Shown: one piece after another, positions 1 through 54,853 of the stretch | How the letters are laid out: the number at the start of each line of letters is the position of its first letter | Numbering within the stretch: the stretch's first letter is position 1 | Source: Podarcis vaucheri | Lineage: Eukaryota | Length of the DNA stretch: 64,000 nucleotides | Reading direction: 5' to 3' (one strand) | Assembly: GCA_965113315.1 (NCBI GenBank) | Contig: OZ220375.1 | Program-made: the position numbers and the translations under genes | The notes under the pieces: generated by a model | The model's input: only the letters and a program-made list of their open reading frames with translations | Told to the model about the DNA's origin: nothing | The model's database searches: none

Positions 1-281
1 GATGGATATCATTTAGCTCCCTCATAATTTTAAGCATTGCTCCAGAGAGCACAGATTCCCACATCAAGTTTTATGTAGCTTGGGGAAAGGTTTGGATGGG
101 CATGTGACCTTCAGTGCACTGAGACCCCAACTTTTCTCAGTGTGGCTGAACTTTCGGGGCATTGTCTTGAGAAGTCAGCAGCTTCAGCTGTGTTGGAGGG
201 TCTTAGGGCACTGGGGCTTATTTACAAACAGTGCTTGGCTTCCTCTAATTTGCCTTTTCCCTTTCCCCCCTTCTAATACAG

Positions 282-314
282 AGTGGAGACATATATGGGA
301 GCTACACAGTCAAG
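282..314 (+). CDS. Putative 33-nt penultimate exon of an unidentified upstream gene
   Basis: Long polypyrimidine tract + tacAG acceptor (280-281) and strong AAG|GTAAGC donor; open in all frames (e.g. SGDIYGSYTVK); product not recognised. Confidence 0.35.
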
Positions 315-1278
315 GTAAGCAAATGGAGGTGCCTGGGCCTAAATCAGTGGCTTCATAAATATGACCTTTGGGGCTCAACAGTGGGCTGGATAGCTTCATG
401 TTAAAGGGGGTATTAAGATTTGCAGTAATGTACAACAATGTGAAGTGGAGGGGAGCAGAGTCCTAGGACAGGGATGTGACTCTAAGAATTGTGGGTGTGT
501 AATTCATACTTTCCAATCCTTGCCATATATTCAGTTGCGTCTCCCTCTCTACTGTACCACACATGCAAAAAACAAACAAAAACCACAAATTTAATCTGAC
601 CACTCGTATTTTGAAAAAATCCAGCCTTTTGTGAGGATTGCTTTCAGAAGCTGAGGGCACTGATTCTACATTTTAATACTGTGTCTTTTCGTGGTTTGCT
701 ATTTAATGTTGTGTCCTAGATGTGTTTGAGTGCATGTGCTCCATAGTTTTGACGACATAACTGGTAGGAGGTGCTGGCTTTTGATCATCTAACACAAGTT
801 TCAAATTACACTTTGAAAATGTTTCTGACCCCACATCATTGCCTGGAGAACTCGAGTCAGTGACACTGAAGACAAGTGCCACTGCCAGCCTAGGCCCATG
901 AGCCAGGCAGGTTTTCTATTCATGTAGTAGCAGGCAGGAGCAGGTAGATGCTATCTGAAAAACTGGGGTGATTGGTTCTGTGCAGTATGGGGAGGTGAAT
1001 AAACTGGACCTTGTGAAGTCATGTGATGGGAGATAGGAAAGTAGAGCGGCTGAAATCCACAACTATCTGATGTTGGATGTGGAGCTGCCTTAAACAATTA
1101 AACCAAATCACAAAAGAGCAGATTAACGAAGGGTCTGTTCTGTGGCCAGCCACTGAGGATAGTAGGGGGGAGAGTGGGATTTTGGGGTGTGTATGTATGT
1201 ATGTATGCACATTATCTGTGGCACATCTCCCTTCAAGGCATTGTTCCTGTTGCCATCACTATTTCTTTTTCCATCTAG

Positions 1279-1622
1279 ATCCTAGCAGAGTGACGGTCTA
1301 CACAGACACCTTTGATGGGAAGGGTTAACTTCAATAATTCCCAGGGGAAGCACCGCTAAGACATGAGGGGGACATGGGGAGAGGCAAGATGCCCACCCCA
1401 CCCCCCTTGAAGACTGGAGAAGCCCAAGCATCTTGAAAGGGGAAGCTCTGCCACCTGCCTACCTCCCTCCCTTTGCTGTTATAGCTCAAATTGTCTCAGT
1501 GGGGCTAATGCCTCACCTCTCTTTTTCTCTCTTGCTCTCTCTCTATTTCTCTCTGATTTAATGCTCTGGTTTTTAATTTCTTCACATGGTTTTTAATTTC
1601 TCTGGATTCCCCTGAAAATAAA
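1279..1622 (+). other. Putative terminal exon / 3' UTR of the same unidentified gene
   Basis: Acceptor tttctttttccatctAG (1277-1278); stop at 1291-1293 (ILAE*) or 1326-1328 depending on frame; AATAAA near 1617-1622. Confidence 0.3.
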
Positions 1623-2989
1623 GGCAAAAAAAGAATTTATTTAAATTCACTTCTCTTGCCTTGTCAGTGTCTCGTTATTCATCGCTACACAGGTGTGTTA
1701 CCAGCATGGGGTAGGTAGTGATGTGGCTCAAGGCACGGAAAATGGTTTGGGAGGGAAATTATTTTAAGGGGTAGAGATGGGAAAACGTGAGTGAATTTTT
1801 GAAAGCACAAAGGAGAAGCTTTGGGAGGTTTACCACAAGGAACTATTGATATATGGCTAAGAAATAGTTTTATTTGTTTATCCACTGAAGAATTTATAAG
1901 CTGCATTCTCATAAGTATTGACAAGGTGGTATGCAACATACAAGATAAAACCACCAAAGGCATCATTAAAAACACCAGTAAATACTGGTTGGTCACAAAG
2001 GAAAAAAATGTGAAGGCCTGTCTATAAACAGTTTTCAGAAGATGTCTTCAAGAAGGCAGGGGTGATTTCTACTGAAATTATGTGACTTGATATTTGCTCA
2101 GTGTTTCCTCTGCCAGCATAGTGACGAGATTATGCTCAGCATAACTTTACTTCTAGGCATCTTTTAGAGATACAGTGCTAGTTTACCTAAATGCTAATTA
2201 ATGGTTCGATACTCTTTATTTCTATTCTCATTTGCTGAGTTTCTAAGCTGGTTGCCACTATAAAAAAGCTCCTCACTTTTAAAAACAAGATTGCCATCTT
2301 AAAAGCCAGTGAACTGATGTGGCCAATTTAGTGAAGAGTAAACCCTACAGAGCACAATGGCTTCTCAGTAAAGACGCTTAGTTGCAGTGGTAATGAGGAA
2401 GTGTGTGAAATAAATCCCCACCACAATTTATCATGAAAGCCAAAGGAAGGAGCCACCTGTGTCCTGTTGGGTAAGAGTGCAATGTTGATAGCCTTCATAG
2501 GGGCAAAACATTTTCTTAGCCCAGCTGTTTCGTAGAAAAATACAGAAAGCTATGAGCCCAATCTCCCCCCCCCGCCCCCCAAAATGGTATTAAAATTAAT
2601 GGGAAAGGTCCAAGTAAACATCGTACGGTCTGAATTGCTTGCTTATTTGAACCTGAGCCTCCTTTTATACAAACCTGAGCCTGGGTTGCTTTGCAGTTAC
2701 TCTTTTCTGGGCTTAAAAACACAAGTAGACAAGTAACAAAAAATGAGCCATATAACTTACTGTTCCTGACCTGCACTGGGCGAGGGGGAGGAGAAAATGC
2801 GCTCTTTGTTGGTTTGCCTCTTTTAAAAGGTGAATATTTCATAAAGAGTTGACCTAAATGTAGCTAAAACCGTTTTTGACGATATAATATATTAATGATC
2901 TATAAATAAGTACTCTTTGCCCTCGACCAAAATGGCTCTCAAAGCTTCCAGTAGTTGTAGCTCTATGCTCTTCGGAAGACTCTCCTCTA

Positions 2990-3338
2990 TGGTCCCGAGC
3001 AGCCGTTATCCGGGAAGGCGCGCGGCCTCCTCCCTTCCGAGGCCTAAGTCGATGACGTGATTTACAGTGTAGGGAGCGGCACTGTTTCTATGGCGGAAGG
3101 GCAGCGCGGGGCGCGTGCGCGCCTGTGCGTCACTTGAAAGCGCCCATTCGCCCGCGGATTGAGAGTGGCGCGGAGGAGTCTCGCCTGCGCCTGCGCCTGA
3201 GAGTAATACCTGATAGGATTCCTTTGCAGGAGTTAGGAAATGGGTGTGCGCAGCTGCCTCTTAAAGGGACAGAATCCCCGAGTAAAAGGGGAAGTCGCCT
3301 GAGCGCCAGCCTGGAGGGCTGTAGAGAACAGGACGGAG
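2990..3338 (+). promoter_or_regulatory. TMEM219: CpG-island promoter and non-coding exon 1 (assigned to TMEM219, possibly shared with the Harbinger-derived ORF)
   Basis: Dense CpG cluster; TGACGTGA CRE-like site ~3053-3060; NRF1-like GCGCGTGCGC (3111-3120) and TGCGCCTGCGC (~3186-3196); strong donor GAG|GTAAGA after 3338; nearest promoter-type CpG island upstream of TMEM219 coding exons. Confidence 0.65.
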
Positions 3339-3549
3339 GTAAGATAAGGTTGCACTTTTCTTAACTGTGTACCATTCTTGCATTTCTTCCCCCGGGTCTG
3401 TTCTCCATCTGGTTATTCTCATCTAAATCCTTTTGTTCAGCTATTAGGCTGGCTTTTGGAACAAAATACGCAAAGATTTAGGTTTCGAAGAATGTAGCCC
3501 CTTGGGGGATAAAATAGGGGGTTTTTTTGCCCTCGTTTGCTGCCTCACA

Positions 3550-3700
3550 CCAAGTCAGCCCATTGGTCCATCTTGTATTGTTTACTCTGACTGGCAGCTG
3601 CTCTCCATGGTCTTTCTCAAGCTGAACGCTTCTAGCTGCATATGGCCAGAGGTTGAACTTGCATTTTCTGAATGCAAAGTATTGACTTTGCCTCTCAGTC
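3550..3700 (-). mobile_element. Degenerate tRNA-derived SINE with CR1-like tail
   Basis: gctgcctcacaccaagtcagcccattggtccatct...ggttgaactt; resembles reverse complement of copies at 39660 and 60200; ends approximate. Confidence 0.4.
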
Positions 3701-4099
3701 AGGGAAAGTCACACACACGCCACAATCCTTTGCATATATATGCCCAGAAGTGAGTGGAGCTTATTTCTTAGTAAGTATGCATAGAATTGCAACCTTGCGT
3801 GCATACATTGAGAGAGATTAATACACTCCCATATTTCTGGAGCTTAGACTATTTACAAGTGAATGCATTTTTTTCTCAGTGCACAGCTGAAAAAGAAGTT
3901 ATATGTCTACCTTCCATGTGAAATCCTGCATTTCCCCATTATCATTAATTGTTCCTAAAGCACTTCTTAGCAAGCAATCCTGGTTTTCAGTGTTCTTCTT
4001 GTCACTTTGGAAGTCAGTCAGCCACATCATTGTTTCTCACCATGCTTGATGGACTTTTGCCATTAAGAAAGTTTGTACCTGGATCTCATAACCCAATTC

Positions 4100-4678
4100 C
4101 TGTGGTGCTGCGGGTGATGTGCCAGACTAGGACCGGGGAGACCAAGATCCAAATCCCCATTCAACTAGGGTGGTCAGTCACTATCTTTCAGCCTAACCTC
4201 ACCCACAGGGTTGTTGTTAAGATAAAATGCAGGGACAGCTATGTATGCCTCTTTGAGCTCCTTGGAGGAAAGGTGGGATAAAGGTAAAGGTAAAGGTACC
4301 CCTGCCCGAACGGGCCAGTCTTGACAGACTCTGGGGTTTGTGCGCCCATCTCACATCTATAGGCCGGGGGCCAGCGCTGTCCGGAGACACTTCCGGGTCA
4401 CGTGGCCAGCGTGACAAGCTGCATCTGGCGAGCCAGCGCAGCACACGGAACGCCGTTTACCTTCCCGCTGGTAAGCGGTACCTATTTATCTACTTGCACC
4501 TGGGGGTGCTTTCGAACTGCTAGGTTGGCAGGCGCTGGGACCGAGCAGCGGGAGCGCACCCCGCCGCGGGGATTCGAACCGCCGACCTTTCGATCGGCAA
4601 GCCCTAGGCGCTGAGGCTTTAACCCACAGCGCCACCTGCGTCCCTGGAAAGGTGGGATATTGTGTATTAAATGAATAA
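4100..4678 (+). mobile_element. Old tRNA-derived SINE (Squam3/MIR-like) split by a Sauria SINE
   Basis: Core 'tcagcctaacctcacccacagggttgttgttaagataaaatg...tgagctccttggaggaaaggtgggata', resuming as A/T-rich tail after 4659; ends approximate. Confidence 0.55.
4281..4645 (-). mobile_element. Full-length Sauria SINE (Squam1)
   Basis: Minus strand starts GGGACGCAGGTGGCGCTGTGGGTTAAA with B-box GGTTCGAATCC, ends in (ACCTTT)n tail; 14-bp TSD GGAAAGGTGGGATA at 4267-4280 and 4646-4659; CpGs retained (young). Confidence 0.92.
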
Positions 4679-5199
4679 CACACTGCTGTACAACACTAAC
4701 CATTTTCACACGTGCTTACTCATATTTCTGTCTAACCTAAAAGCTTATTTTGAGCTGGGAGCTTAACCTGCCTGGAACCTGTTTTGAGTGCTACCACTGA
4801 ACCATGAAATAACAGTAAGCCTTGCTGACTAGTTCTCATCTGGCAAGGGGGCTCTGGTTTGCACATGGCATGCTGCCTTTTGGCCTTCCCTCCCCAGACT
4901 CATTAGCTGAGCAGGCAGTTTTCGTAAAGATAGGGCAGGATTCAGTTATCCTATTTCACTAGCAGACGCCAGCACAAAGACTTCTACTAGCCTAATGGGG
5001 CTTCACCCACCTTAGGCCTCTCCCAAATCTGCTCTGAAGGGTCATGAGAACCCCCAGAACAGTTCACAGGGAGGAGAGGGGAAATTGTTCTGTTTGCTGC
5101 TTGCTTGATGGAACAATCTCCTTAGCCCTAGCCATAATTCCACCCATAGTTGTTTTTTAAATCACAATTGTCCCCTCACTAATTTATTAAGAGAAAGCT

Positions 5200-5410
5200 G
5201 GTGTAGTGTAGTGCCTGAGAGACTGAGCTATGAGTCAGAAGTCAGGACTGGTTTGGATCTTACCTCTGCCCTGAGCTCACAAGGTGCCTTGGGGAAGCAG
5301 TTCTCCCTCAACCTCACCCCTCTTGCCATATTGGGGGATAATACCGACTTACAGGCTTGCAGCTGGATGATGCATGTGAACTACTGTGAGCACTTGAAAG
5401 CAGTCTAGGA
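5200..5410 (+). mobile_element. Degenerate Squam3/MIR-like SINE
   Basis: gtgtagtgtagtg...gccttggggaag...ggggataatac...gtgagcacttgaa; ends approximate. Confidence 0.45.
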
Positions 5411-5513
5411 ATATGAGGCATTGTCATTAACAGGGCAAAAGACACCTCTACAGTTGTAATGTGAGCAGGCTGTGTGCTCCCATTGCACATTAGTGTCTGT
5501 GCATTCACACGTG

Positions 5514-5649
5514 CAGGCACCCCCAAACTCAGCCTCCCAGCTGTTTTGGGACTACAACTCCCATCATCCCAAGCTAACAGGAGCAGTGGTCAGGGATGGT
5601 GGGGATTGTAGTCCCAAAACATCTGGAGGGCCAAGTTTGGGGATGCCTG
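5514..5649. mobile_element. hAT-type MITE (136 bp, palindromic)
   Basis: TIR CAGGCACCCCCAAACT / AGTTTGGGGATGCCTG, internal ggactacaactcccatcatccc hairpin; 8-bp TSD CACACGTG/CACACGTA. Confidence 0.85.
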
Positions 5650-7155
5650 CACACGTAGGTGCACTTGAGATGAAACACACCTATAGATTCAACTGTGTGT
5701 GTTTGTGTGTGAGAGATGAATGCTGGAGAATGAGAGCTCTAGTATGTGATTGCTAACGTGATTTTGGTAACAAATTCCCAAAGGCAGGGCCACACCTAGA
5801 AAATAGGGACGGATGGGATGGATAAGGAGTTTCCCAGTAGATCCTTTGTTAGAGTTTAAACCAAACCACTTTCTGTCTCCAGACTATCTGTCTTTCCATG
5901 CCACTATCTTGGCCATCCTTCCCCTCTTCCCTATGCCAAGTCACTGTTCTTTCTTCTCTTCATTGTCTTTGGCAACTGAGTATGGGATGATGATCAGATT
6001 AAATGCCTCTCAAATAAGTATTTAGAAGATACAGTGGCTTGTACAGAACTATGTAGGAACCCAGGCTGCTATTGAAGCTGGTACCTCTATCCGTAATGGG
6101 GTCCCAAAGCTCTCTCTATCTATGTGGTTTGCATCCAGCCCTAACCATGTTATTATTTAAAAGTAAGTACCACTGAGTTCAGTGCGATTTGCTTCCAAGC
6201 AAGGATGCACAGGGTTGCAGCCCTAATGTACTGAGGACACACGGAAAACTGTGTTGCATGAGAAAAATCAATATTCCCTGTGGAAGGGGGAGTGGGGGAG
6301 TTATTGTAGCAGAGAACATGTAGATCAGTTCCCGATGTTCTTCACTGTTTTTGTAGTAAGTCAAAGCTGGGCATTAAATGACTTCTGGGCGTTTTGCTAA
6401 GGATGGTGGAAGAGCAACTGAACTGAATTATTTGGGTCAGTAGGCCAACAGAACTGCTCTGATTCTGTGAGCTTTAAGCACTGAGAACACATTAGCATTC
6501 TGCTCATTTCACAGAAAAGAGGATTTAAAACTGTTCATTTCGCTGTAGTCATGGTTCAAATGGAATATTTGGGGGGAAATAAAATGCAGCTGTCTCACAA
6601 ACTTGAGCAGAGGTGGAGCTCTGGAAAAGTGGTAAGATTTTAAATCTCACAGGATTTACCTCAGAACCTGATTTTCAAGACTCAGCCTAATTGCCTCTGA
6701 GTATGTATAGAGCGCTTTCCCATCACTGCTGAGTAACTCCTGTTGGGCTGAGCACATCTGAAACAAGCAGGGATGCTGAACCTTTGAAGCCAATTAAGTT
6801 ACAAATCAGATATCAGGTGGTTGACCAGTTTTGAGATAAAGTCCTAGCTTCAGAGAGTAGACAGTTACTGGAGGTGGGTGTGGGTTGATGTAAGACGAAC
6901 ACTATGGGAGTAATATAGCAATGTCATTGAGGGGTGGTCAGCTGGAAGACTATTTATGGGCACTGGAGGGAAGCTGGGGTGGGGAAGACAGAACAGAGCC
7001 ATAGGCAACTCTGAAACCTTTATGAATTTTGGAATGTAGAATGGGCAGAGATTGGACCTTTCCCAAGTGTGGTGGAATAATTTTCTTATGCTCCATCTAT
7101 TTTGCTGTTTAGAAAAGGCCTTCACAGTTGAAATACAAATATGATTCAGTTACAA

Positions 7156-7170
7156 TATATTGCCCTTCAG
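7156..7170 (+). promoter_or_regulatory. Candidate splice acceptor for the transposase-derived exon
   Basis: atattgcccttcAG at the transition from AT-rich intron to GC/CpG-rich sequence, 172 nt before the ATG. Confidence 0.45.
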
Positions 7171-7342
7171 CTCAACAGCAGCTTTCCGGCCGAAGCACAA
7201 GGACTGGTGATGTCTTGTCCCTGCCCAGCGACGTCATCCCTGCCTTGGCTAAGGGTGTAGCAAGGGGAAGGTTTTTCTCGTAGCACCTTCACGCCACTTC
7301 CTCCCGAGCCTTCTGCAAGCTTCTTCAAGAGCGGCCGGATAA

Positions 7343-8698
7343 ATGGATCAGGAGTGCCTGGCTCTGGTTGCTGCCTGCGTCCAAACCTCCCAGTTGCTGG
7401 TGCAGCAATGGATGCTCAACAGGCGCACGGTGATTTTCGCCATAGCGAGGATTCTGCAGAGGAGGCGCTTCCGCAGGTCGGCCGCGGTGCTCAGGCGCAT
7501 CCTCTCGGCCAGCGTCCGCCGCAAGAGAGCCCTGCTGCGGCTTCACCGGAACGCCATCGTCTCCGTGGTCACCATGGTGTACTCGTCTTCTCCCGCGCTG
7601 CACTATGAGCACGAGCTGATGGCCTTGTCTGAGCGCTCCCACTGGATGCTTCCGAGGTGCAGCGAATGGTGGGAGCGGATGATCAACTCCGAGCAGGACG
7701 ACAAGTGCTGGATTTCCTTGTTCAGGATGTCGCGGTCCACGCTGATGTACATCGCTGAGGAACTGCGCCCTGCCCTGCAGCGCCGGGACACCGGCATGCG
7801 GTCTCACATCCCTGTGGAGAAAAGAGTCGCCATGACTATCTGGAAGCTGGCGCACCATGACAGCTACAAGACCGTCTCAGAGCTCTTCGGGGTGGGGATT
7901 TCGTCAGCCTGCTCGATATTTGAAGAAGTGTGCGAGGAAATAAACAGCAGGCTGCTGAACCAAATCATTAAGCTGGGAGATCCGCAGGAGATCATTGAGG
8001 GCTTCAAGGAGATGGGTTTCCCCAACTGCCTCGGCGCAATCGATGCAATCCACATTTCCATCCTCTGCCCCCCGTTCTCTGCCGACTCCTACATTAATTG
8101 CAAGGGTTTCTATTCTATGGTGCTGCAGGCCCTGGTGGACAGCAAATCCCGGTTCACCGATATCTACGTCGGCTTTCCGGAGAGGTCCCACGACTCCCGC
8201 ATCTTGCACAACTCTCCGTTCTTCAACAGCATGGACGAAGGCACTTTTGGGCCACAGGCGCCAACAGTGCTGGAAGGCGTTTCAATGACCCCTATCATAA
8301 TCGGGGATCCTTCCTATCCGCTTCGGCCCTGGCTCATGAAGCCGTACCCAGCGCCAAAAACCGGGGCCCAGGAAAAATTCAACGAGAGGCTCGCTAAGTG
8401 CCGCGTGTGTGTGGAGAGAGCTTTTGGGGTCCTGAGAGCTCGCTGGAGGTGCCTGCAGATGAGGCTGGATGTGAGGGAGAAGCTCATTCCTGTGGTCATA
8501 GCCACCTGCTGTATCCTGCACAATATCTGCGAGATCAAAGGGGATGAGTTGCTGGAGCCGTTGGAAAGCCCTGCAGTGGCTGAAAGCCAGAATGCTTCAG
8601 CCAGGCCAAGGGTGCCCTTGTCAGAGGCTGGACTGACCAAGAGAGCTTGCCAGATCAGGGCTGCTTATTGCTCCTATTTTGAAAAGGACCCTGTGTAA
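7343..8698 (+). CDS. PIF/Harbinger DDE transposase-derived protein (HARBI1/ALP1-like, DDE_Tnp_4 type), intronless, 451 aa
   Basis: Uninterrupted ORF with Harbinger motifs: FRMSRSTL; HTH region IPVEKRVAMTIWKLA...VSELFGVGISSACSIFEEVC; GFPNCLGAIDAIHI (D1); YINCKGFYSMVLQALVD; HDSRIL; IIGDPSYPLRPWLMKPY (D2); FNERLAKCRVCVERAFGVLRARWRCL (E); CCILHNICE. Confidence 0.93.
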   Translation: MDQECLALVAACVQTSQLLVQQWMLNRRTVIFAIARILQRRRFRRSAAVLRRILSASVRRKRALLRLHRNAIVSVVTMVYSSSPALHYEHELMALSERSHWMLPRCSEWWERMINSEQDDKCWISLFRMSRSTLMYIAEELRPALQRRDTGMRSHIPVEKRVAMTIWKLAHHDSYKTVSELFGVGISSACSIFEEVCEEINSRLLNQIIKLGDPQEIIEGFKEMGFPNCLGAIDAIHISILCPPFSADSYINCKGFYSMVLQALVDSKSRFTDIYVGFPERSHDSRILHNSPFFNSMDEGTFGPQAPTVLEGVSMTPIIIGDPSYPLRPWLMKPYPAPKTGAQEKFNERLAKCRVCVERAFGVLRARWRCLQMRLDVREKLIPVVIATCCILHNICEIKGDELLEPLESPAVAESQNASARPRVPLSEAGLTKRACQIRAAYCSYFEKDPV

Positions 8699-8820
8699 AA
8701 TGGGGTGGGGGAAGCAAAGCAGGCTCATTTGTCCATGTAATTTCATGGGTGTGTATGACCTGGTTGTAGCATGCAGACCCTGCATTGCTGAAGTCTACTG
8801 TGGTAGTTTTCTACATGTCA

Positions 8821-8826
8821 AATAAA
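8821..8826 (+). terminator. Poly(A) signal of the transposase-derived gene
   Basis: AATAAA ~120 nt after the stop codon, followed by GT/T-rich sequence. Confidence 0.6.
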
Positions 8827-9171
8827 AAGGCTATGATTTTGAGTGGTCTGCTGCTATATTTTCTAAGAGATGGGATTTTTAAAAAGGTAATTGCTATGGT
8901 AAAAGCATAGGGTGGGACTTGAACCAATGCTGGTGTAAAACAGAAGAGTGAACAGTTTTTCTTAAAGGGGATTTACATACCCACCACTCTATCTCTAAAA
9001 CATTAAGAAAAGGACACAGTATACCTGCCTAATGAAAATGGAAGTTCATGGACAAATTTTCTAGCCCGTTAGAAAGTACACTGGTTGCAATCCTATGCAC
9101 ACTTACCTGGGACTACGTCTTACTGAACTCTCTGGGACTTTCTGTGTAATCCTATCATGTTCACCCAGAAA

Positions 9172-9357
9172 CATAGCTGTCAACTTTCAGATTTGAAAAT
9201 AAGGGATCAGCAGCCTCGAAAATAAGGGACCAGCCTCACCTGTCCCGGGGACAGTGTATGGAATATCTAACAATCCGGGATAGCAGTGGGAAGCAGCGGG
9301 AAGCAGCGCTGGAATAAGGGAATTTCCCGCAAAAAAAAGGGAAGGTTGACAGCTATG
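9172..9357. mobile_element. hAT-type MITE (186 bp)
   Basis: TIR CATAGCTGTCAAC(T/C)TT at both ends; perfect 8-bp TSD CCCAGAAA (9164-9171, 9358-9365); internal AATAAGGG repeats. Confidence 0.88.
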
Positions 9358-11464
9358 CCCAGAAATATTTCAAGATGTTTCAGTTGGCTAGTCCAGTATC
9401 CAGCTGTTTATGGGGGAAATCAACAAAGATCATGAAGATGCATGCTACTCCAGCCTCTCCAATACTAAATGCAGGTTTTATGCTACTTTGCTACATGAAG
9501 ATATCGTCTTCTGGGTGTCATCCAAAAGCGGTTTCAGTGTTGCAGGTTCATCTGGAGACCCAGGGATTTTTAAGATGAGACACATGGATTTCAAGGGGAA
9601 TGGCTGACATGAGATTTATATGAACCAGTAACCATGGAGCCACATAATGAAACAGGTTGGACAGTCTTATTAAGCTAAGATACGAACAAGACTTTTGTTC
9701 ACACTAAAACCAGGAATCTTCTAATCATAATTTTCTGGTTTGGTAGGGTTGCCATATTTCAAAAAGTGAAAACACTAAGTTGTGTTTTGTTGTTATATTT
9801 TTGCTAAATTGCAAAAATGGCTCCTTTTTAAGGGAAATCGACACTGCTGGCTTTACTGGTTTAATTGCAGCTTTCAGGGAAAAGTGAAGGGACTGTGTTC
9901 AGGGGCAAAAAGCTTATGCATTTTTTCAGCCTAATAAGTCTAATAAGATATTACTAATAAGATATGACTGTCTGAATGCATTTGATAACTCCCACTTTCC
10001 ATATCTGGGCAGACATGGTTTTATCCTGGCTTGCAAACCAGAAATGTCAGCAACACTGAAACCACTGTTTCTCAGTTCAGATGTCAAGTGAAGCTGATTT
10101 AACAAACTGGGAATCTTCCCCTCCTATGGGGCACATGAGAGAGGAAGCACTCATACTCATGGTTCGCTCCTGTTCTTAAAAATGAATAAATCACTGAGCT
10201 GCTTTACAAAACACTTGTCCTTCCATATTTAAGATTTTTCTAGGAAAGTATATTTTTTCAATTGATAGGGAAGCCAAACACAGAATAAATGCATTCATGA
10301 TAATGGTCATTGTGCTTAATGCCCTGTTTGCTAATTGCTAGGGATGGTCTTCAAGGGGAGACTTCTGAAGCGATAGTGCAAAGCAGTAACCAGTGTACTT
10401 TGGTTGCAAACATGTTCTGCTGATCCTTTCTTTCACAATGCAATATTGTGCAGACACACAGAATGTGTAGAAAGTAGCTTTTGACAATTATGTGCCATTT
10501 GCCACAACTGCAACGTTGAACAGTTAGTGGGATCATTTTAACAAAATGGCTTTAAGCAAAAACTGTAGCATGTTCCTCCACTTCAAAGTAAAAAGATTTG
10601 TTACATTTCCTTTGCTTCCGTAGGCAGCAGTCTGTCTTAGTGTCGCCAGGATTGAATTTGTAGCAGAACTCCCCTAAGCTTAGCACTAGAGCACAGAGGT
10701 TGCTCAAGAGAGTCTCTGGGTTGTATCCAGCTAAGTTCTACTCTAAAGGAGACCTGAAATTATTGAACCTAAGATAGTCTTGTCCATTCAGTTCTTTGGG
10801 TCTGTTCTGAGTACAGCTACTACTGGAGACAATCCTCTCCCTCACCACTGAATGCCACTTCCCCTGTTACAAGTGCTGGAAATGTATAACCCACATTAGA
10901 AAATGGTGGGCAACAATCGCATGTGTAGAATTGTTGCTGCATAAACAGACTTTGAAGACCACCAGGAGTGTACTTGCCACATGTGATAATCTTTATGTGC
11001 TCACCATGTTGTTTCTTACAGAGGACTCGCCTCCTGTGTGTTGTGTAATGTAGGACGCAATCCAGAAAAGCCACAACTATTGCCCCCCAGCAGCACCACA
11101 AACACTCAATCAAGCAATACATATCTAAAGATCAGGGCTTCTCCAGCCAATGCCTTTTCATTTAATCTGCGATTTAGAAGAAAGATGCTAGGAGGTAGAT
11201 ATGAAACAGTGGGGTGAGGGGAAGGAGGCAACATACACATTGTCTTAGCCTTTTGAGGATATGGTGGCTGCTATGTGGATCATAGTGGGATCTGAGAAAT
11301 CAAAAAGGACCAAGTGTCCCTCAGTTGTCCAGCACTCTATTTTTGAAAGTGTATAAGTTGATTGTTCTGTATTTAGCAGTTACCTTGGGACACTTAGGAG
11401 GGTGTTGGAGAAGTTGGTTGTGAGGATCACCAGGCAAAATGGCGTTAGCAGAACTTTCAGTGTT

Positions 11465-11760
11465 GGAGAACATCAACAGCTTTGCTGAATCAGGTGAAAG
11501 GTCCATCTAGTCTGGTATCCCCTTTCCCACAGTGGTAAACTATATGCTTCTGGGAAGCTCATAAACAGGTATAGAAGCAATAGCTGTCACCTGTTATTAC
11601 TCCCTAGTGACAGTATTATCAGGCATGCTATGTCTTAAGTTTGGAGGTTGTATGTAGACTTCCCTTACACTAATAGCAAATTCATTCTCCCAAGTGTGGA
11701 TCCTTGTGCAGCTAAAAGCGCATGATGAGTGCTCATGGAAGAGTTATTCAGGAAGAACTG
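11465..11760 (-). mobile_element. CR1 LINE 3' end fragment
   Basis: agaacat...gctgaatcagg...aaggtccatctagtc...tttcccacagtgg pattern, reverse complement of CR1 tails at 30930 and 31830; ends approximate. Confidence 0.5.
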
Positions 11761-13311
11761 AACATGCTCAGTGGCTATAGAAAATTGACTCTCAGTTGAA
11801 TGGAGGGCGGAATGGACAAGCGGGAGGAGGGAAAATGGAATATCCAGGAAAAGGGCATGGCTGGCTGGCAGGAATTCCAAATAGGAGCCTCCATACTGCA
11901 ACTTTTTGTTGCAGGTTCCACTTGTCATGATTAACAGCTAATGGTAAAACACATTAATTCTCCATGAAAGTGTGTTTAATCCATCTATGCTAGAACCATT
12001 TGTGGACTTAATGTCTATCGGAAGTCTGCAAGCAGGGTCTGAGCACAACAGCCCTGTCCTCACATACAATTCCCTGCAGCTGACATTCCCAGCAGCGAAG
12101 GTACAGGAGATCACATGCTGCACAATGATCTTGCTAGCAGTTCGCTGCAGTAACTGCTAGCAAGTTGATTGTGTGATGTAAACACACCAACATTTGTGGG
12201 ATATACAGCACAAGTCTACCATGAAACTACGCATTCACATGCAATTCTTAAGAAATATGGGGAGAAACTGTCTCACAAGACCCGAAGACTCAAAGAAGGG
12301 AAGCCTTATGTAACAAAGGAATGGAACAAAACTTAAGAAATCAAACAAATGTGGTGTTCAGTTTCCCACAGTTTATGCTGCTTATTCATTTTGTGGGGGG
12401 TTCTCTCTTTTGGTGAATTTTGAGGGGACACACAAAGCTCAGCATCCCCATATTCCTTTTTTAAAAAAAACTTTATTTAAACAAAGGGAAAAATAATGTG
12501 ATCAACAACAGTACATCATGTGGCACTTTAAGATTTGACAGAGATTGTTAAAAATAACCTCCTTATAAAGTTTTCCCCCTTCCTCATCCCCAACAAATAA
12601 CACCACACTGCGAGAAGACTTGGCAATGATGAGATTGCCATGTTGGGTGGAGCAGATGAAGCAACTATGGGTTGCAAATATCCAACTTTCACCTATAATT
12701 CCAGCTCTTTCTTTCCAACTTGTGTTGAAATTTACCACCTTCATCAGAAATATAGAGAAGTAGGAAAACCTGTCAAGTAGGAAAACCTTACCTGTATATC
12801 CTTGAGTGTGACGTTCTTTCATACAAGCAGAGTCATCCAGACAGTTGAGATGATCAAGAATCTAGTGGTTGCTAACTTCAGAAGTTGGCACTTTTAAGTC
12901 CCCCCCCCCCAAATGCATAGATTTAGAGCTAATTTAAACAATGAGGTGTATGTAGTGCAGTCTTCCCTGAGAGCCTTACTGTGTCAAGATACACGTGGGC
13001 AGTGGTTACTTGTCTAAAAACACCCCACAGTCAAAATATATTCATTTTATTAATTTTTGAATTACCTTTCACATGTCTCAATCTGAATTACAATATAAGC
13101 AACTAACATACTTTTAAAAGCAATACAAGATGGAGACCTTTTCATCCAGATGGAAATGTTTGTTGAAACAAAATGTCTTCAGGTATTTTTGGAAAGCACA
13201 TAAAAAATGAATACGAAGTTGCAGCATATCATCTTTCCATTTACATGGCGATCTTGAGGCAGGGGCAATCTCAAGGAAACCAATTCCCACTTTATTTTCA
13301 GCAAGTTTAGT

Positions 13312-13704
13312 CCAGTGTGGTATAGTGGTTAAGAGCAGTAGTCTCGTAATCTGGTGAACTGGGTTCGCGTCTCCGCTCCTCCACATGCAGCTGCTGGGTG
13401 ACCTTGGGCCAGTCAAACTTCTCTGAAGTCTCTCAGCCCCACTCACCTCACAGAGTGTTTGTTGGGGGGGAGGAAGGGAAAGGAGATTGTTAGCCGCTTT
13501 GAGATACCTTAGGGCAGTGTTCCCCAACCTTGGGCCTCCAGCTGTTTTTGGACTACAATTCCCATCATCCTTGACCACTGGTCTTGCTAGCGAGGGATGA
13601 TGGGAGTTGTAGTCCAAAAACAGCTGGAGGCCCAAGGTTGGGGAACACTGCCTTAGGGTAGTGATAAAGCGGGATATCAAATCCAAACTCCTCTTCTTCT
13701 TCTT
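13312..13704 (+). mobile_element. tRNA-derived SINE (Squam3-like) with (TTC)n tail, interrupted by a hAT MITE
   Basis: A-box-like TGGTATAGTGG, B-box-like GGTTCGCGTCT, core gggtgaccttgggccagtc...tcagccccactcacctcacag, 3' gataaagcgggatatcaaatccaaac + ttc tail. Confidence 0.8.
13515..13650. mobile_element. hAT-type MITE (136 bp, near-perfect palindrome)
   Basis: TIR CAGTGTTCCCCAACCTTGGGCCTCCAGCTGTTTTTGGACTACAA and exact inverse; perfect 8-bp TSD CCTTAGGG (13507-13514, 13651-13658). Confidence 0.92.
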
Positions 13705-13989
13705 TAGACAACCAGACCGCATGCACGCTAAATATTTAAATCACCTCTGAGCAATTTATGAGATTGAATGAATATATTTTGGTGTTATTTCCATTCACAT
13801 TTCTGGGACATGATTTGTTTCTTAAAATTTATTTAATAAAGTAATGCTTATGATTGTAGCACACAAAATGCAAAGGGGAATAGGTAGCCCACTGCCTGCC
13901 TTTTCGTTTCCCTTGATTCTGGCTGTTCCAGCTTCTTCCAGTGCTGGGATGACACTGCAACCTTCTCACCCTCATTCCTAGGGCTGACC

Positions 13990-14148
13990 ATGGTCACCTG
14001 CTCCCTGCTGGGCTCCCTGCGTGTCTGCCTGGAGCGACACCCACCTCTGGTCACCTTCTTCTTTTGCCTCCTTTCGTTGGCTGTTGCCTTTGTTGGTTTT
14101 GCTGCCTACATCCAGTCACATGATGTTCAGAATCCTGATGTCAAAGAG
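13990..14148 (+). CDS. TMEM219: TMEM219 (IGFBP-3 receptor) coding exon 1
   Basis: Acceptor at 13981, gaccATGG; MVTCSLLGSLRVCLERHPPLVTFFFCLLSLAVAFVGFAAYIQSHDVQNPDVKE resembles TMEM219/TMEM248 N-terminus (CL..HPPLV, TM helix, PD); donor GTGAGC; adjacent to TAOK2 as in mammals. Confidence 0.88.
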
Positions 14149-14967: not shown

Positions 14968-15190
14968 GACTGGAATTCTCTGCTAAAGTCTCTGGCACAC
15001 TTAATGTTCTGTATCCCAAATAAGACGCAGGAAAGTGCCTTGACACCAGCTCCCTCCACAACCACTGCTGAGACCCCTACAACAGTCTCTGTCATGGTTG
15101 CCTTGACCTTTGACTTCCACAATGGCACAGATCCTCCCAATGGTACACGCCTAGGTCTGACAGTCACTGGGGAAAAGCTGGGTCTCAAAG
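14968..15190 (+). CDS. TMEM219: TMEM219 coding exon 2
   Basis: AG/GT bounded, in frame: DWNSLLKSLAHLMFC...TVTGEKLGLKG; phase 0 to 1. Confidence 0.88.
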
Positions 15191-15302: not shown

Positions 15303-15411
15303 GTCTAGATGCCCAGGAATCAATCCACTTCCTGACTATCATCACGAACTCAGTCTCCCATGAGAACTGCCTTAGCATCACTGCACCTTCATCCCTTCTC
15401 CCCAAGACCAG
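15303..15411 (+). CDS. TMEM219: TMEM219 coding exon 3
   Basis: LDAQESIHFLTII...CLSITAPSSLLPKTR; phase 1 to 2. Confidence 0.85.
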
Positions 15412-15479: not shown

Positions 15480-15591
15480 ACAACCACCTAAATGTGTGAT
15501 AGAGGAATGGGACATGCACCAAGAAGAGACAGGAATTTGTTACCAGCCACATTACCAGGCTAATCCTGCCCTGTCCAGCATGCTGGATCAG
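15480..15591 (+). CDS. TMEM219: TMEM219 coding exon 4
   Basis: QPPKCVIEEW...CYQPHYQANPALSSMLDQ; phase 2 to 0; donor GTAAGA. Confidence 0.85.
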
Positions 15592-15706: not shown

Positions 15707-15835
15707 GCGGATCGTGCCCTCTGCAGCCAGCGGCTCCTGATGACCAGTGCTTTCCTTCTCTGCCTCTGTGCCATGCTATGTTGTGCAGCTGGCCTGTGCT
15801 ATCCTAACCCCAGAGACAAGTGGGGGCAAATCTAA
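15707..15835 (+). CDS. TMEM219: TMEM219 last coding exon (second TM helix)
   Basis: ADRALCSQRLLMTSAFLLCLCAMLCCAAGLCYPNPRDKWGQI*; spliced total 243 aa. Confidence 0.88.
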   Translation, partial: ADRALCSQRLLMTSAFLLCLCAMLCCAAGLCYPNPRDKWGQI

Positions 15836-42472: not shown

Positions 42473-43022
42473 TCTAATGCATTTGTGGCCGCTGGCCACC
42501 TCTGCTTAAATATGGTGTCAGCAAGTTGATCTCTTCTCCGAAACAATGAATTCTGCAGTGAAGCAATACAAATTCTATGTGTGCACATGCAAAATTCTGC
42601 AAAACCTTCACAAACCTCATTATATAAACTGTTATAAACTATTTCCTTGATTTGCTGAGCATCTCCTTTTTATACTAGTCATAGAGCCTAACCACCAACA
42701 CCTGCATTCCAGCATCATCTGGAAGCTTTGCTAGAAAATAGTGTTCTTTAAAATAGAGGAGAGCTGGGTGTTGCTCAAGATGCTGGCTTTTGCCTCCAGT
42801 CCCAAATTCTGTATTTTGATAGGCTTGGAGGGAGAGTGCTTGCAGCCCTTGACATTAGAGCAAGGGGGAATGAGACAATTGTTATTCTCGGGCCCTTGGG
42901 AGAAGAATGGAAACCTGGATGTAAGAAAGAATGCTGACCCTTTTAAGAGCCTTGATGCCAGGAAGAAGCGAGTCTCCATTGGAGGTGCAGTTCTAACGCC
43001 TTTCCCTTGCTTCCTCCCTCAG

Positions 43023-45161
43023 GAGCTGAACAAAAAGCAGACCCAGAAGGACTTGGAGTGCGCCATGCTTCTGCGCCAGCACGAATCCACGCAGGAGCTG
43101 GAGTTCCGGCACCTGCACACCGTCCAGCGCACCCGCACGGAGCTCACCCGCCTGCAGCACCAAACCGAGCTCTCCAACCAGCTGGAGTACAACAAGCGCC
43201 GGGAGCAGGAGCTGCGCCAGAAACACGCCATGGAGGTCCGGCAGCAGCCTAAGAGCCTCAAAGTAGGTGCTACCTACACCCCGCCTTGCTGCCAGTGGTG
43301 CCCTGACGGGCAGGATGCAAGGGGTCTGGAGCCAGGGCAGGGGCACCCAGGGGTTGTGGAAATGGACACAAATGAGGACGGAAGTCTAGAGCCCTTGCAG
43401 GACCACTTGTGTGGGCCTAGTCCCTGTGACTGTTCAGCCAGGGTTCAGAAATGCCCGGCAGATGCAGAATCTAAATGCGCACACTTTGCGCCACTAGACT
43501 CAAGAGGATGTGAATCGGCTGTTTCGGAGTCTGGTAGCCCTTGTCATGATGATCTAGGCCGATGCAAACCTATTGGAGAGGTTCTGGAGCCAACTCAGGG
43601 TGTTGTTGTAGACACAGGAATAAAATGTCCCAACCTTTTAGGGAAGTGTAGCCATGAAATGGGGGTTCTGGAGCCAGAGCTAGACTGCCATGGGCATGTG
43701 GTTTTAGAGTATGGCCTGGAGGAGGAGGAGGATCTAGAACTGGATGCAGTGCGTATTGGGGGTCTTGTACAGGACTGGTCGCCAAAGGGGGTTGGAGAGC
43801 TGGGTGAGCAGGGTTTGGAGGCCTTGGTGCCTGAATCAAAGTGTTCTGGGGACGTAAAGCCTGATTGGCAATGCCTGGCAAGCGAAATTCCAGATGGGCA
43901 GGAAGCTGCTGCTTTAGAGCAGAGACAGGGGTGCCTTTGGCTCAATGGGAAGGACGAGGAAGTCCTAGATCTAGACAGAAAAGAAGGTTGGATTCCAGAT
44001 TTCGGTGAAACAAGCTTGAAACAGCAAGAACACTGTGGAGAGGGAGTTGCTGATCTAGAAGTAAGCCAGAGGTTTTTTGGAGTGCGGGATCACTTTGGAG
44101 AGGGCTCTGGGGTTCTGTTGTCCGTTCGGGGGCGGCCAGGCGTTCCAGAGCCTGATGGGCAAGAGGCTGATAAGCTGGATCCATTCACATGTGAAGGCAA
44201 TTTATACTCTCACGCCTTACCCACTGTCCTCGAAGAGGGGGCCCTGCGAGGCCCAGGAGATGGCTGCCCAGCCCCTGAAGACCCCTACAGCCAGCAGGCC
44301 AGCAGCAAAGCCCACCCCGTCCCACCTCCCGTGGCAGCCATGCTGCCCCATGCTCTCTGCGTGGTCTTGGCACTGTTAGTCTCTGCCTACCCATGTGCGC
44401 CAACTCTCTTGCTGCTCCTCGCGGCACTGTGGGCGCAGGGTGGCGGGTTTCAGGATATCCTCCTGGCCCTTGAAGGGGCTCTAGTGGGCCTGGGGGTTAC
44501 GTACACCTTGTTGCACTCTGTCTTCCTCCTTTCCGGAGCGTCCTTTCTCCTCCTGGCCAAGATGGCGGGGGCAGTGGGTGTGGTGGGGCTGAGTGCCAGT
44601 AGGGAGCGCCTGTACGTTCCTGTCATCCTCCTGGCTTCCTACCTGTTGGCTTCTCCCTGGCTGTTCCTGCCCCTTTACCTCTTGGGGGCACTCGCACGGC
44701 ACAGCCTGAGGGGATTCCCCCGCCGAGCCCGCCGCTTCTGGCTCCTGGCCCTGCTCCGTCTCCCACGCCCGGCTTTCCGCATCCTCCAGCGCCTGGGGCT
44801 GGTCACTGAGCAGGGGCTGTTCCGCCTCTTCCCCAAAACCAACAAAGGCGGCTTCCGCAGCCGCATCCCGGTGCTGTCCCGCCAGCGCCAGCCGTCCCTG
44901 CCCTGGCACCGCAAGGCCGCGGCCCTTCTTGCCAAGCCGATTTACAGCATCAACAAGATCCTCACGGAGGTGATTTGTGCTCAGCTGCCTCCTTCGGCCC
45001 TGCATTGCCTCAAGGGGCTGCATGTCTTGCGAGAGGAAAGGCCTTCCCGTATCCCCCGCCTGACAGCCAGGCCCCGGGGGCATTCTGTAGGGTCAGGGAG
45101 GCGCATTAGTAGGAGGAGAAGTGTGCAAGGAAGACAGCCTGCCAGGAGACCCTGGAGATGA
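43023..45161 (+). CDS. TAOK2: TAOK2 alpha-isoform terminal exon (first 240 nt, 43023-43262, shared with beta; read-through adds acidic linker, hydrophobic TM region and basic tail)
   Basis: [21 protein letters not shown]...QQPKSLK then read-through of donor AAA|GTAGGT; [39 protein letters not shown], ...PWR* match TAOK2-alpha; spliced total 1349 aa. Confidence 0.93.
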
Positions 45162-54343: not shown

Positions 54344-54853
54344 ATCGAAGAGGAGATGTTGGCCTTGCAGAATGAGCGATCTGACCGCATCCGGAGCCTC
54401 TTGGAGCGCCAGGCCCGGGAGATTGAGGCCTTCGACTCGGAGAGCATGCGCCTGGGCTTCAGCAACATGGCGCTCACAGGCATTCCAGCTGAAGCCTTCA
54501 ACCAAGGCTACACTGCCCCCCCTCAGCCCTGGCCCTCCCGCCCCGTCCCCCGCAGCGGCTCCCACTGGAGCCACGGTGTCCAGAACACAGCCGGGGCCCC
54601 CCACGCGTGGCGGCAGCCCCCCATGCTTGCCCCGCCCCCTTCGGCTTGGCTCCACCCTCCTTCCTCCTCCCCTTCCTCCTCCTCCTCCTCCACGTCATCC
54701 GCCCCTGGGGGCCGCTCCAATGTGGTCATGCTGAGGAACAGCCCCCAGCCGCTGCGGCGCACAGCTTCTGGAGGCCAGTCGGACCAGGGCATCAGCCGCT
54801 CGGCCAGCGTCACCTCCCACATCCTCAACGGGTCGCACTTCTCCTACTCGTGA
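54344..54853 (+). CDS. TAOK2: TAOK2 beta-isoform terminal coding exon
   Basis: [40 protein letters not shown]...[14 protein letters not shown]...[12 protein letters not shown]; beta total 1018 aa. Confidence 0.95.

What the first reader, a model, noticed from the sequence alone, without database searches (positions are those of the whole stretch)
3300..13990. One promoter, two unrelated proteins? Transposase exon as an alternative terminal exon competing with TMEM219
Seen: strong donor at 3338 in the CpG island; candidate acceptor at 7170 exactly where GC-rich sequence begins; AATAAA at 8821; TMEM219 acceptor at 13981 with ATG 8 nt later. An in-frame TAA sits immediately before the transposase ATG (7340-7342), so no N-terminal fusion is possible. 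Inference: exon 1 splices either to the transposase exon (polyadenylated early) or skips it to make TMEM219, giving mutually exclusive products. This parallels the known ERCC6/CSB-PGBD3 exon-trap arrangement but without a fusion protein.
Basis: partly seen in the sequence, partly recalled or inferred. Interest (0 to 1): 0.72.

Follow-up and report, generated by a model that had tools for sequence, protein, structure and literature searches.

The report
Tamed transposase gene inside reptile TMEM219
Lizards and snakes carry, inside the first intron of the TMEM219 gene, an intact jumping-gene enzyme gene that is far better conserved than TMEM219 itself and likely shares TMEM219's promoter and first exon, and several public annotations list it as a TMEM219 variant rather than as a gene of its own.

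Summary
Window 7343-8698 encodes a single-copy, single-exon, 451-aa PIF/Harbinger transposase in TMEM219 intron 1. It is a domesticated gene: 16 of 16 aligned squamate sequences are 451 aa without indels and keep D234/D322/E358. Across 28 species pairs it averages 95.5% identity, against 76.9% for TMEM219. The 3338>13982 TMEM219 junction is seen in RNA. The 3338>7171 junction was not seen: it is absent from the 15 of 90 joints displayed, and no close-up view was obtained. Support for a shared exon 1 is indirect. NCBI names this protein a TMEM219 isoform in 8 of 15 listed species, and read-depth arithmetic fits a spliced start at 7171 but not an own start at 7185-7330. Both products occur in the same samples, so 'mutually exclusive' holds only per molecule. 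The layout is known (ZBED1/DHRSX, RBM12/CPNE1); ERCC6-PGBD3 is a looser parallel. I found no paper on the gene in 10 searches. This scan had not noted the locus before, only a similar case in HSCB. Verdict: new member of a known kind, interest 0.55.

The parts
2801..3300 (.). CpG-island promoter region, TMEM219 promoter and likely shared with the transposase gene
   Evidence: CpG o/e 0.97-1.07; X5 contig starts at 3199 and X23 sense reads pile up in 3064-3527
3199..3338 (+). Exon 1 (5' end approximate), most likely non-coding here; donor GAG|GTAAGA at 3338; uORF 3240-3302
   Evidence: Junction to 13982 in X5 and X23. RefSeq models of Lacerta agilis, Podarcis raffonei and Anolis carolinensis read ...QDGG|L.M across the same join. 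ATG 3090 stops after 15 codons in this genome
7153..7170 (+). Candidate acceptor of the transposase exon (alternatives at 7178, 7181, 7228); use not shown directly
   Evidence: 12/18 pyrimidines; X23 sense-read arithmetic fits a start at 7169-7171 with about 86-96 aligned letters
7171..7342 (+). 5' UTR of the transposase exon, with a 16-codon uORF (7210-7260), GACGTCA (7230), CACTTCC (7295) and in-frame TAA (7340-7342)
   Evidence: X1 contig from 7197 and X9 contig from 7182
7343..8698 (+). Single-exon ORF, 451 aa, PIF/Harbinger transposase-derived; acidic triad D234 (8042-8044), D322 (8306-8308), E358 (8414-8416); predicted 79-residue N-terminal helix
   Evidence: PF13359 E 3.6e-29; single copy; 16 of 16 squamate rows 451 aa, 378 invariant columns; model pLDDT 85.9
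8821..8826 (+). AATAAA polyadenylation signal; likely cleavage near 8840-8845
   Evidence: X1 and X9 contigs end at 8839 and 8834
13914..13931 (+). Possible second, upstream acceptor for TMEM219 exon 2
   Evidence: 13/18 pyrimidines; X9 contig begins at 13932
13982..14148 (+). TMEM219 exon 2, ATG at 13990
   Evidence: junction reads; PF14940
14968..15835 (+). TMEM219 coding exons 3-6 (14968-15190, 15303-15411, 15480-15591, 15707 to stop at 15835); 243-aa product
   Evidence: GT-AG boundaries and open frame; contig pieces; homologues

Best explanation
An intact, single-copy Harbinger transposase gene, conserved across lizards and snakes, sits in TMEM219 intron 1 and likely works as an alternative last exon: the non-coding exon 1 from the CpG-island promoter splices to TMEM219 exon 2, and likely also to the transposase exon near 7171, which is likely cleaved after the AATAAA at 8821. 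SHOWN: the ORF, its single copy, conservation, purifying selection, expression as a discrete block, the 3338>13982 junction, and no upstream fusion frame. INFERRED: the 3338>~7171 junction. A Harbinger element most likely inserted before the gecko/other-squamate split, lost its ends and its Myb-like partner gene, and was kept because its protein became useful. INFERRED function: a nuclear host protein that docks through its long basic N-terminal helix on a Myb/SANT-type partner made elsewhere and regulates chromatin or transcription, as proposed for HARBI1-NAIF1 and ALP1. It keeps the acidic triad but has fixed changes next to it (A235, E280), so transposition is unlikely and residual nuclease activity is open.
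For: Domestication: only self plus one 66% paralogue at DNA level; no convincing terminal inverted repeats among the 25 of 50 pairs shown; no Myb remnant by tblastn (best E 0.34); 93-98% identity to 15 orthologues from geckos, lacertids, snakes, iguanians, a cordylid and an amphisbaenian; mean 95.5% vs 76.9% for TMEM219 over 28 pairs of 8 species; 13 synonymous vs 9 non-synonymous differences to run X1, pN/pS 0.22, p 4e-4. Shared gene: 8 of 15 listed cluster members are named 'IGFBP-3 receptor isoform X1/1'. In 6 species their accessions run on directly into the true 240-266-aa TMEM219 isoforms, with no transposase-TMEM219 chimera among the RefSeq-type isoforms read. 7 of 15 have 2-4 accessions for the same 451 aa, which suggests alternative spliced UTRs. 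X23 sense reads put 4041 letters before 7240 and at most 1415 after it, with depth 1 at 7348; this fits a start at 7171 with a short upstream exon piece. X1 has depth 0 in the intron bins 5848-6775 and 10024-11879.
Against: The 3338>7171 joint is not among the 15 of 90 joints displayed. X1's main contig starts at 7197 and X9's at 7182, neither with exon-1 sequence shown; X9 has no exon-1 depth at all. In X5 one contig runs unbroken from 6004 to 9199 and the exon 1-exon 2 contig is also unbroken, so that sample shows no sign of the transposase splice. The read arithmetic assumes a 5'-type library with about 110 cDNA letters per sense read and fits an unspliced start near 7150 equally well. The acceptor is weak (16% of local YAG sites score as well). 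7 of 15 annotations keep the two genes separate. The rule by which NCBI groups isoforms was not checked. All RNA data come from related species, not from the window's species. Nothing here tests the protein's function or partner.
Confidence: 0.72

Rival explanations
1. The domesticated transposase is a nested gene driven mainly by its own internal CpG-island promoter starting near 7130-7200; it shares only the locus with TMEM219.
For: CpG-rich 5' end (o/e 0.97 at 7401-7700; 0.78 at codon positions 3|1 vs 0.0 in the TMEM219 CDS); CRE-like and ETS-like motifs; X1 and X9 contigs start at 7197 and 7182; an unspliced start near 7150 fits the X23 depths; 7 of 15 annotations are separate genes.
Against: CpG richness is shared by 4 of 4 paralogues. 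A start at 7182-7229 would need sense reads of only 14-78 aligned letters. It does not explain isoform grouping with TMEM219 in 8 species or the several transcripts per identical protein.
Confidence: 0.18
2. The transposase is read from a composite transcript, either by retention of intron 1 (ZBED6/ZC3H11A type) or by splicing onward from its 3' UTR into TMEM219 exon 2 (bicistronic), and this is what joins the two in annotations.
For: X5 covers the intron almost throughout (28 of 30 bins); one 7/9 donor lies at 8736 in the 3' UTR; three GenBank gene predictions join transposase to TMEM219 (P0099, P0124, P0134).
Against: X1 shows zero intron depth on both sides and a contig running through 8736 to 8839. 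X5's flat depth fits pre-mRNA or DNA. The three chimeric predictions use three different joins, which points to predictor artefacts.
Confidence: 0.07
3. The ORF is a recent or horizontally spread selfish Harbinger insertion with no host function.
For: Intact acidic triad; the nearest tree neighbour is a multicopy gecko Harbinger family (P0015, 9 members, support 100/100 on a long branch).
Against: Single copy; no element ends or Myb gene; same length and start in 16 of 16 rows; tied to TMEM219 in gecko, lacertid, snake, agamid and amphisbaenian records; pN/pS 0.22.
Confidence: 0.02

Closest known systems
ZBED1/DHRSX and RBM12/CPNE1 promoter-sharing pairs (PMC2568002, passages read)
   Same: Two unrelated proteins from one promoter and shared 5' exon; the choice is attributed to splicing and polyadenylation. 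ZBED1 is in the paper's table of 24 pairs and comes from a domesticated hAT transposon (PMC3606216, abstract start only).
   Different: Here the element is PIF/Harbinger, the host is TMEM219, it is found only in squamates, and the shared junction is inferred rather than shown.
ZBED6 in ZC3H11A intron 1 (PMC2780926, passages read)
   Same: Intronless, single-copy domesticated transposase in intron 1, common promoter, no sequence similarity to the host, very high conservation.
   Different: ZBED6 is read from an intron-retaining ~13-kb transcript; here X1 shows a discrete exon ending at its own AATAAA.
CSB-PGBD3 exon trap (PMC2268245, passages read)
   Same: Transposase ORF flanked by an acceptor and AATAAA, acting as an alternative 3' terminal exon.
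   Different: PGBD3 gives an in-frame fusion with CSB exons 1-5 and keeps MER85 ends; here an in-frame TAA blocks fusion and no ends were found.
HARBI1-NAIF1 and MSANTD1-4 (PMC9392472, passages); Arabidopsis ALP1 (PMC4671723, passages)
   Same: Harbinger-derived host genes; the transposase-derived protein partners a Myb-like protein.
   Different: Not the HARBI1 orthologue: a HARBI1-like locus (name recalled) lies on contig C1 at 23-33% identity. ALP1 has lost the triad (DGA); this protein keeps D-D-E. No partner gene lies beside it.
Domesticated Harbinger near the squamate harbiTRIM cluster (PMC12262214, passages; fig. S3 not seen)
   Same: An intact, transcribed, apparently domesticated Harbinger of about 200 Myr in squamates.
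   Different: Described beside TRIM and butyrophilin genes, not TMEM219; probably a paralogue. I could not check which.

Membership tests
PIF/Harbinger transposase family | DDE_Tnp_4 domain with family motifs | tested here: met
   PF13359 E 3.6e-29, PF04827 E 6e-16; motif columns align with 63 relatives
PIF/Harbinger transposase family | Acidic catalytic triad | tested here: met
   D234, D322, E358 in 16 of 16 squamate rows; D in 59, D in 55 and E in 48 of 63 relatives. Adjacent A235 and E280 replace G, found in 44 and 61 of 63
PIF/Harbinger transposase family | RNase H-like DDE fold | tested here: inconclusive
   Confident model; Foldseek top hits are DDE transposases and integrases, but best E is 0.0099; no PDB sequence match
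Autonomous Harbinger transposon | Terminal inverted repeats flanking the element | tested here: not met
   No convincing pair flanking the ORF among the 25 longest of 50 pairs in 5700-11500
Autonomous Harbinger transposon | Second ORF encoding a Myb/SANT protein | tested here: not met
   No such ORF of 100 aa or more in intron 1; tblastn with a paralogue's Myb domain gives best E 0.34
Autonomous Harbinger transposon | Multiple dispersed near-identical copies | tested here: not met
   Self plus one 66% paralogue; protein paralogues at 49% or less
Domesticated transposase gene | Orthologous position across species | tested here: met
   Indirect: TMEM219 isoform names and consecutive accessions and chimeric predictions; no other genome DNA was available
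Domesticated transposase gene | Purifying selection on an intact ORF | tested here: met
   pN/pS 0.22, p 4e-4 from 22 listed ORF differences; 93.8-99.1% pairwise identity
Domesticated transposase gene | Transcribed | tested here: met
   Raw RNA run X23 and presumed-RNA contigs of X1 and X9, all from related species
Domesticated transposase gene | Demonstrated host function | not testable with these tools
   Needs knockout or interaction data
Promoter-sharing pair (ZBED1/DHRSX, RBM12/CPNE1 type) | Same first exon spliced to both coding regions | tested here: inconclusive
   3338>13982 seen; 3338>7171 not among 15 of 90 joints shown; indirect support
Promoter-sharing pair (ZBED1/DHRSX, RBM12/CPNE1 type) | No shared coding sequence | tested here: met
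   In-frame TAA; exon-1 open frame stops 7-41 codons after each of 8 candidate acceptors upstream of the ATG
PGBD3-type fusion exon trap | In-frame host-transposase fusion protein | tested here: not met
   TAA 7340-7342; all 16 rows begin at the same Met
HARBI1 orthologue | Orthology to vertebrate HARBI1 | tested here: not met
   A separate HARBI1-like locus (identified from memory of its sequence) on C1, 23-33% identity

The most novel reading that the evidence does not exclude
The 451-aa protein is a still-active, squamate-specific domesticated nuclease: its triad is invariant and it is far more conserved than its host. It would perform a programmed DNA-cutting or genome-defence task in lizards and snakes, with its dose set by a splice and polyadenylation switch against TMEM219, and would be one of a set of several independently tamed Harbinger genes in squamates.
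Probability: 0.12. Interest if true: 0.85.

Novelty: new member of a known kind. Interest (0 to 1): 0.55.

Why it matters
It exposes an apparently undescribed reptile gene that has stayed about 95% identical across lizards and snakes yet is filed as 'TMEM219 isoform X1' in several annotations. Gene-level expression, orthology or selection analyses of squamate TMEM219 that take the longest isoform would be measuring a transposase. It adds a Harbinger case, with the catalytic triad intact, to the short list of vertebrate transposases domesticated on a host promoter without fusion. Together with paralogues that have kept or lost the triad, it makes a long-open question testable: what do HARBI1-like proteins do, and is catalysis needed?

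Tried and rejected
1. Direct view of the 3338>7171 junction. The one read lay obtained was crowded by repeat-derived rows, and no close-up of 6700-9100 is available, so loose ends and start sites there remain unknown.
2. The run search listed no holder on record as RNA among indexed runs; this is no evidence either way.
3. Transposase-TMEM219 fusion protein. Rejected: three GenBank predictions use three different joins, and the only donor scoring 7/9 or better in 7171-8860 lies in the 3' UTR.
4. Coding exon 1. Open in some RefSeq models but stops after 15 codons here; rejected as conserved coding.
5. GC step as evidence for the acceptor or a promoter. Rejected, since it is a family trait.
6. 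Single-sequence fold was unusable (pLDDT 37); the PDB sequence search was empty.
7. Non-squamate orthologue. None among 67 hits at E<=1e-60; the next best is 52% identity. Only the 7995 best word-sharing candidates were scored and only 15 of 44 cluster members were seen, so tuatara, turtle or bird orthologues are not excluded.
8. Literature. Searches listed nothing describing this gene (listings only, except the passages named). The transposase-capture paper by Cosby and colleagues (recalled) was not held, and supplements of it and of PMC12262214 were not seen.
9. No complex prediction was run, because the partner is unknown.
Full report
SETTING. The window lies on a 60-Mb contig of a 1.6-Gb genome. 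The protein is 98% identical to Podarcis muralis and Lacerta agilis records, so the animal is most likely a lacertid lizard. Gene order on the + strand is a KCTD13-like gene (name recalled from its translation), a NUFIP2-like gene (PF15293), TMEM219 (PF14940), then a TAOK2-like kinase (name recalled).

OBSERVATION. All named features are present at the stated coordinates: donor 3338, AG 7170, in-frame TAA 7340-7342, ATG 7343, AATAAA 8821, acceptor 13981 and ATG 13990. The 7170 acceptor is not distinctive: 59 of 361 local YAG sites have as many pyrimidines, and several rival AGs follow it. The GC step is a trait of the gene family.

THE ORF IS A DOMESTICATED GENE. It matches DDE_Tnp_4 and is single-copy at DNA level. 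It has no convincing element ends and no Myb partner ORF nearby. A search of the protein collection returns one cluster of 44 sequences at 90% identity, then nothing above 52%. The 15 members listed, of 40 read, come from geckos, lacertids, snakes, iguanians, a cordylid and an amphisbaenian. All are 451 aa, align without a gap and are invariant at 378 columns. Over 28 pairs of 8 species the protein averages 95.5% identity (93.8-99.1), against 76.9% (69.2-96.2) for TMEM219 and 82-85% in 4 comparisons for a paralogous 483-aa group. Against run X1, from a related species, the 22 listed ORF differences are 13 synonymous and 9 non-synonymous (pN/pS 0.22, p 4e-4); 24 of that contig's 25 differences were listed. 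D234, D322 and E358 are kept in 16 of 16 rows. Neighbouring A235 and E280 replace glycines found in 44 and 61 of 63 relatives. In a tree of 43 selected proteins (38 database proteins, 4 own paralogues and the query; other hits were left out) the orthologues form a tight clade whose sister is a multicopy Eublepharis Harbinger family on a long branch. The model has a 79-residue N-terminal helix and a DDE-type core, with only weak Foldseek matches to transposases and integrases.

TRANSCRIPTS, DIRECT EVIDENCE (four runs from related species, three of them contigs only guessed to be RNA). The junction 3338>13982 is seen in X5 and in 20 X23 reads. In X1 a single contig covers 7197-8839 at depth 27.7, with zero depth in the intron bins 5848-6775 and 10024-11879 and depth 24-27 on TMEM219 exons 3-5. 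X9 pieces cover 7182-8834. So the transposase exon is expressed as a discrete block that stops just after the AATAAA, in the same samples as TMEM219. The junction 3338>7171 is not among the 15 of 90 joints displayed. The weakest displayed rows have a summed support of about 64, so a smaller or split junction would be hidden. In X5 the region is covered at the same flat depth as the intron, and neither contig breaks at the proposed junction. No closer view was obtained, so the junction remains unshown.

TRANSCRIPTS, INDIRECT EVIDENCE. (a) NCBI names the 451-aa protein 'insulin-like growth factor-binding protein 3 receptor isoform X1/1', the TMEM219 product name, in 8 of 15 listed species. In Podarcis muralis, Crotalus tigris, Rhineura, Heteronotia, Pogona and Vipera the accession numbers continue into the real TMEM219 isoforms, and the isoforms read are not chimeric. 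With no coding overlap, the two most likely share a non-coding exon or splice site; NCBI's grouping rule was not checked. Seven of 15 carry several accessions for one identical protein, as expected of spliced UTR variants. The other 7 of 15 annotations keep the genes apart. (b) X23 depths look like a 5'-end library: sense reads pile up at exon 1 and just before 7240, and antisense reads lie downstream. Sense letters are 4041 before 7240 and at most 1415 after it. If such reads hold about 110 cDNA letters (assumed), a start at 7182-7229 does not fit, a start at 7171 with a short upstream piece does, and so does an unspliced start near 7150. (c) The exon-1 donor is conserved between lacertids and Anolis, as shown by RefSeq models that translate across it.

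MECHANISM. I put 0.72 on a shared promoter and first exon with the transposase as an alternative terminal exon, 0.18 on a mainly independent internal promoter, 0.07 on a composite transcript and 0.02 on a selfish element. Each pre-mRNA would give one product or the other, but nothing shows switching between cells or tissues. The in-frame TAA and a start Met shared by all 16 rows exclude an N-terminal fusion. For the protein I infer a nuclear regulatory role with a Myb/SANT partner in trans, by analogy with HARBI1-NAIF1 (PMC9392472, passages) and ALP1 (PMC4671723, passages). This is untested.

COMPARISON. Same-strand promoter sharing by unrelated coding sequences is known: 24 human pairs, including ZBED1/DHRSX and RBM12/CPNE1 (PMC2568002, passages). 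ZBED6 shares the ZC3H11A promoter through intron retention (PMC2780926, passages). PGBD3 is a terminal exon trap that makes a fusion (PMC2268245, passages; PMC5381638, passages). An apparently domesticated squamate Harbinger is mentioned beside the harbiTRIM cluster (PMC12262214, passages). Ten literature searches listed no description of this gene. The library lacks most subscription journals, and supplements of transposase-domestication surveys were not seen. This scan's index held nothing on this locus and one analogous, unchecked note on HSCB.

VERDICT. A real and apparently undescribed, strongly conserved squamate gene in a known kind of layout, whose key junction is probable but not shown. 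Novelty: new member of a known kind. Interest 0.55.

Noticed in passing
L002, L003, L004, L005 (G000 C33:65.08 Mb, C10:113.79 Mb, C34:5.77 Mb, C34:3.07 Mb): Four more intact, CpG-rich single-ORF Harbinger transposase-like genes (38-49% identity). L002, L004 and L005 have lost acidic triad residues. L003 belongs to a 483-aa group conserved at 82-85% across snakes, geckos and other lizards. This looks like a set of squamate domestications.
   Followed up: partly
L002 and L020 (G000 C33:65.074-65.088 Mb): KRAB-like exon, zinc-finger exon, Myb/SANT ORF (PF13837) and a triad-less transposase in one orientation; an Elgaria model joins them into a 1116-aa protein. Gecko records P0051 and P0059 are KRAB-Harbinger fusions.
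   Followed up: partly
L016:8667-9617 and window 280-1340, AATAAA near 1617: A NUFIP2-like gene (PF15293) ends about 1.6 kb upstream of the TMEM219 promoter, after a KCTD13-like gene on the same strand; in human, as I recall, KCTD13 lies head-to-head with TMEM219.
   Followed up: partly
window 13914-13981: Possible second TMEM219 acceptor at 13931 (X9 contig starts at 13932), which would add a 10-codon uORF (13949-13981). Rhineura and Vipera models carry unrelated short N-terminal extensions, suggesting other upstream exons.
   Followed up: no
window about 4280-4645, 5520-5650, 9172-9357, 13312-13704: High-copy repeats in intron 1: a SINE-like element, a 186-bp element with 17-bp inverted ends, and a roughly 147-bp insert nested in another repeat at 13504-13651 that is absent from many other copies.
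   Followed up: no
window 42780-45161 and 54356-54853: The downstream TAOK2-like gene (name recalled) shows a long open terminal exon with hydrophobic stretches and a second, later terminal exon: another alternative last-exon choice next door.
   Followed up: no
P0015, P0025, P0040 clusters: Young multicopy Harbinger families with intact triads in Eublepharis (9 members), Elgaria (38) and Sceloporus (12).
   Followed up: partly
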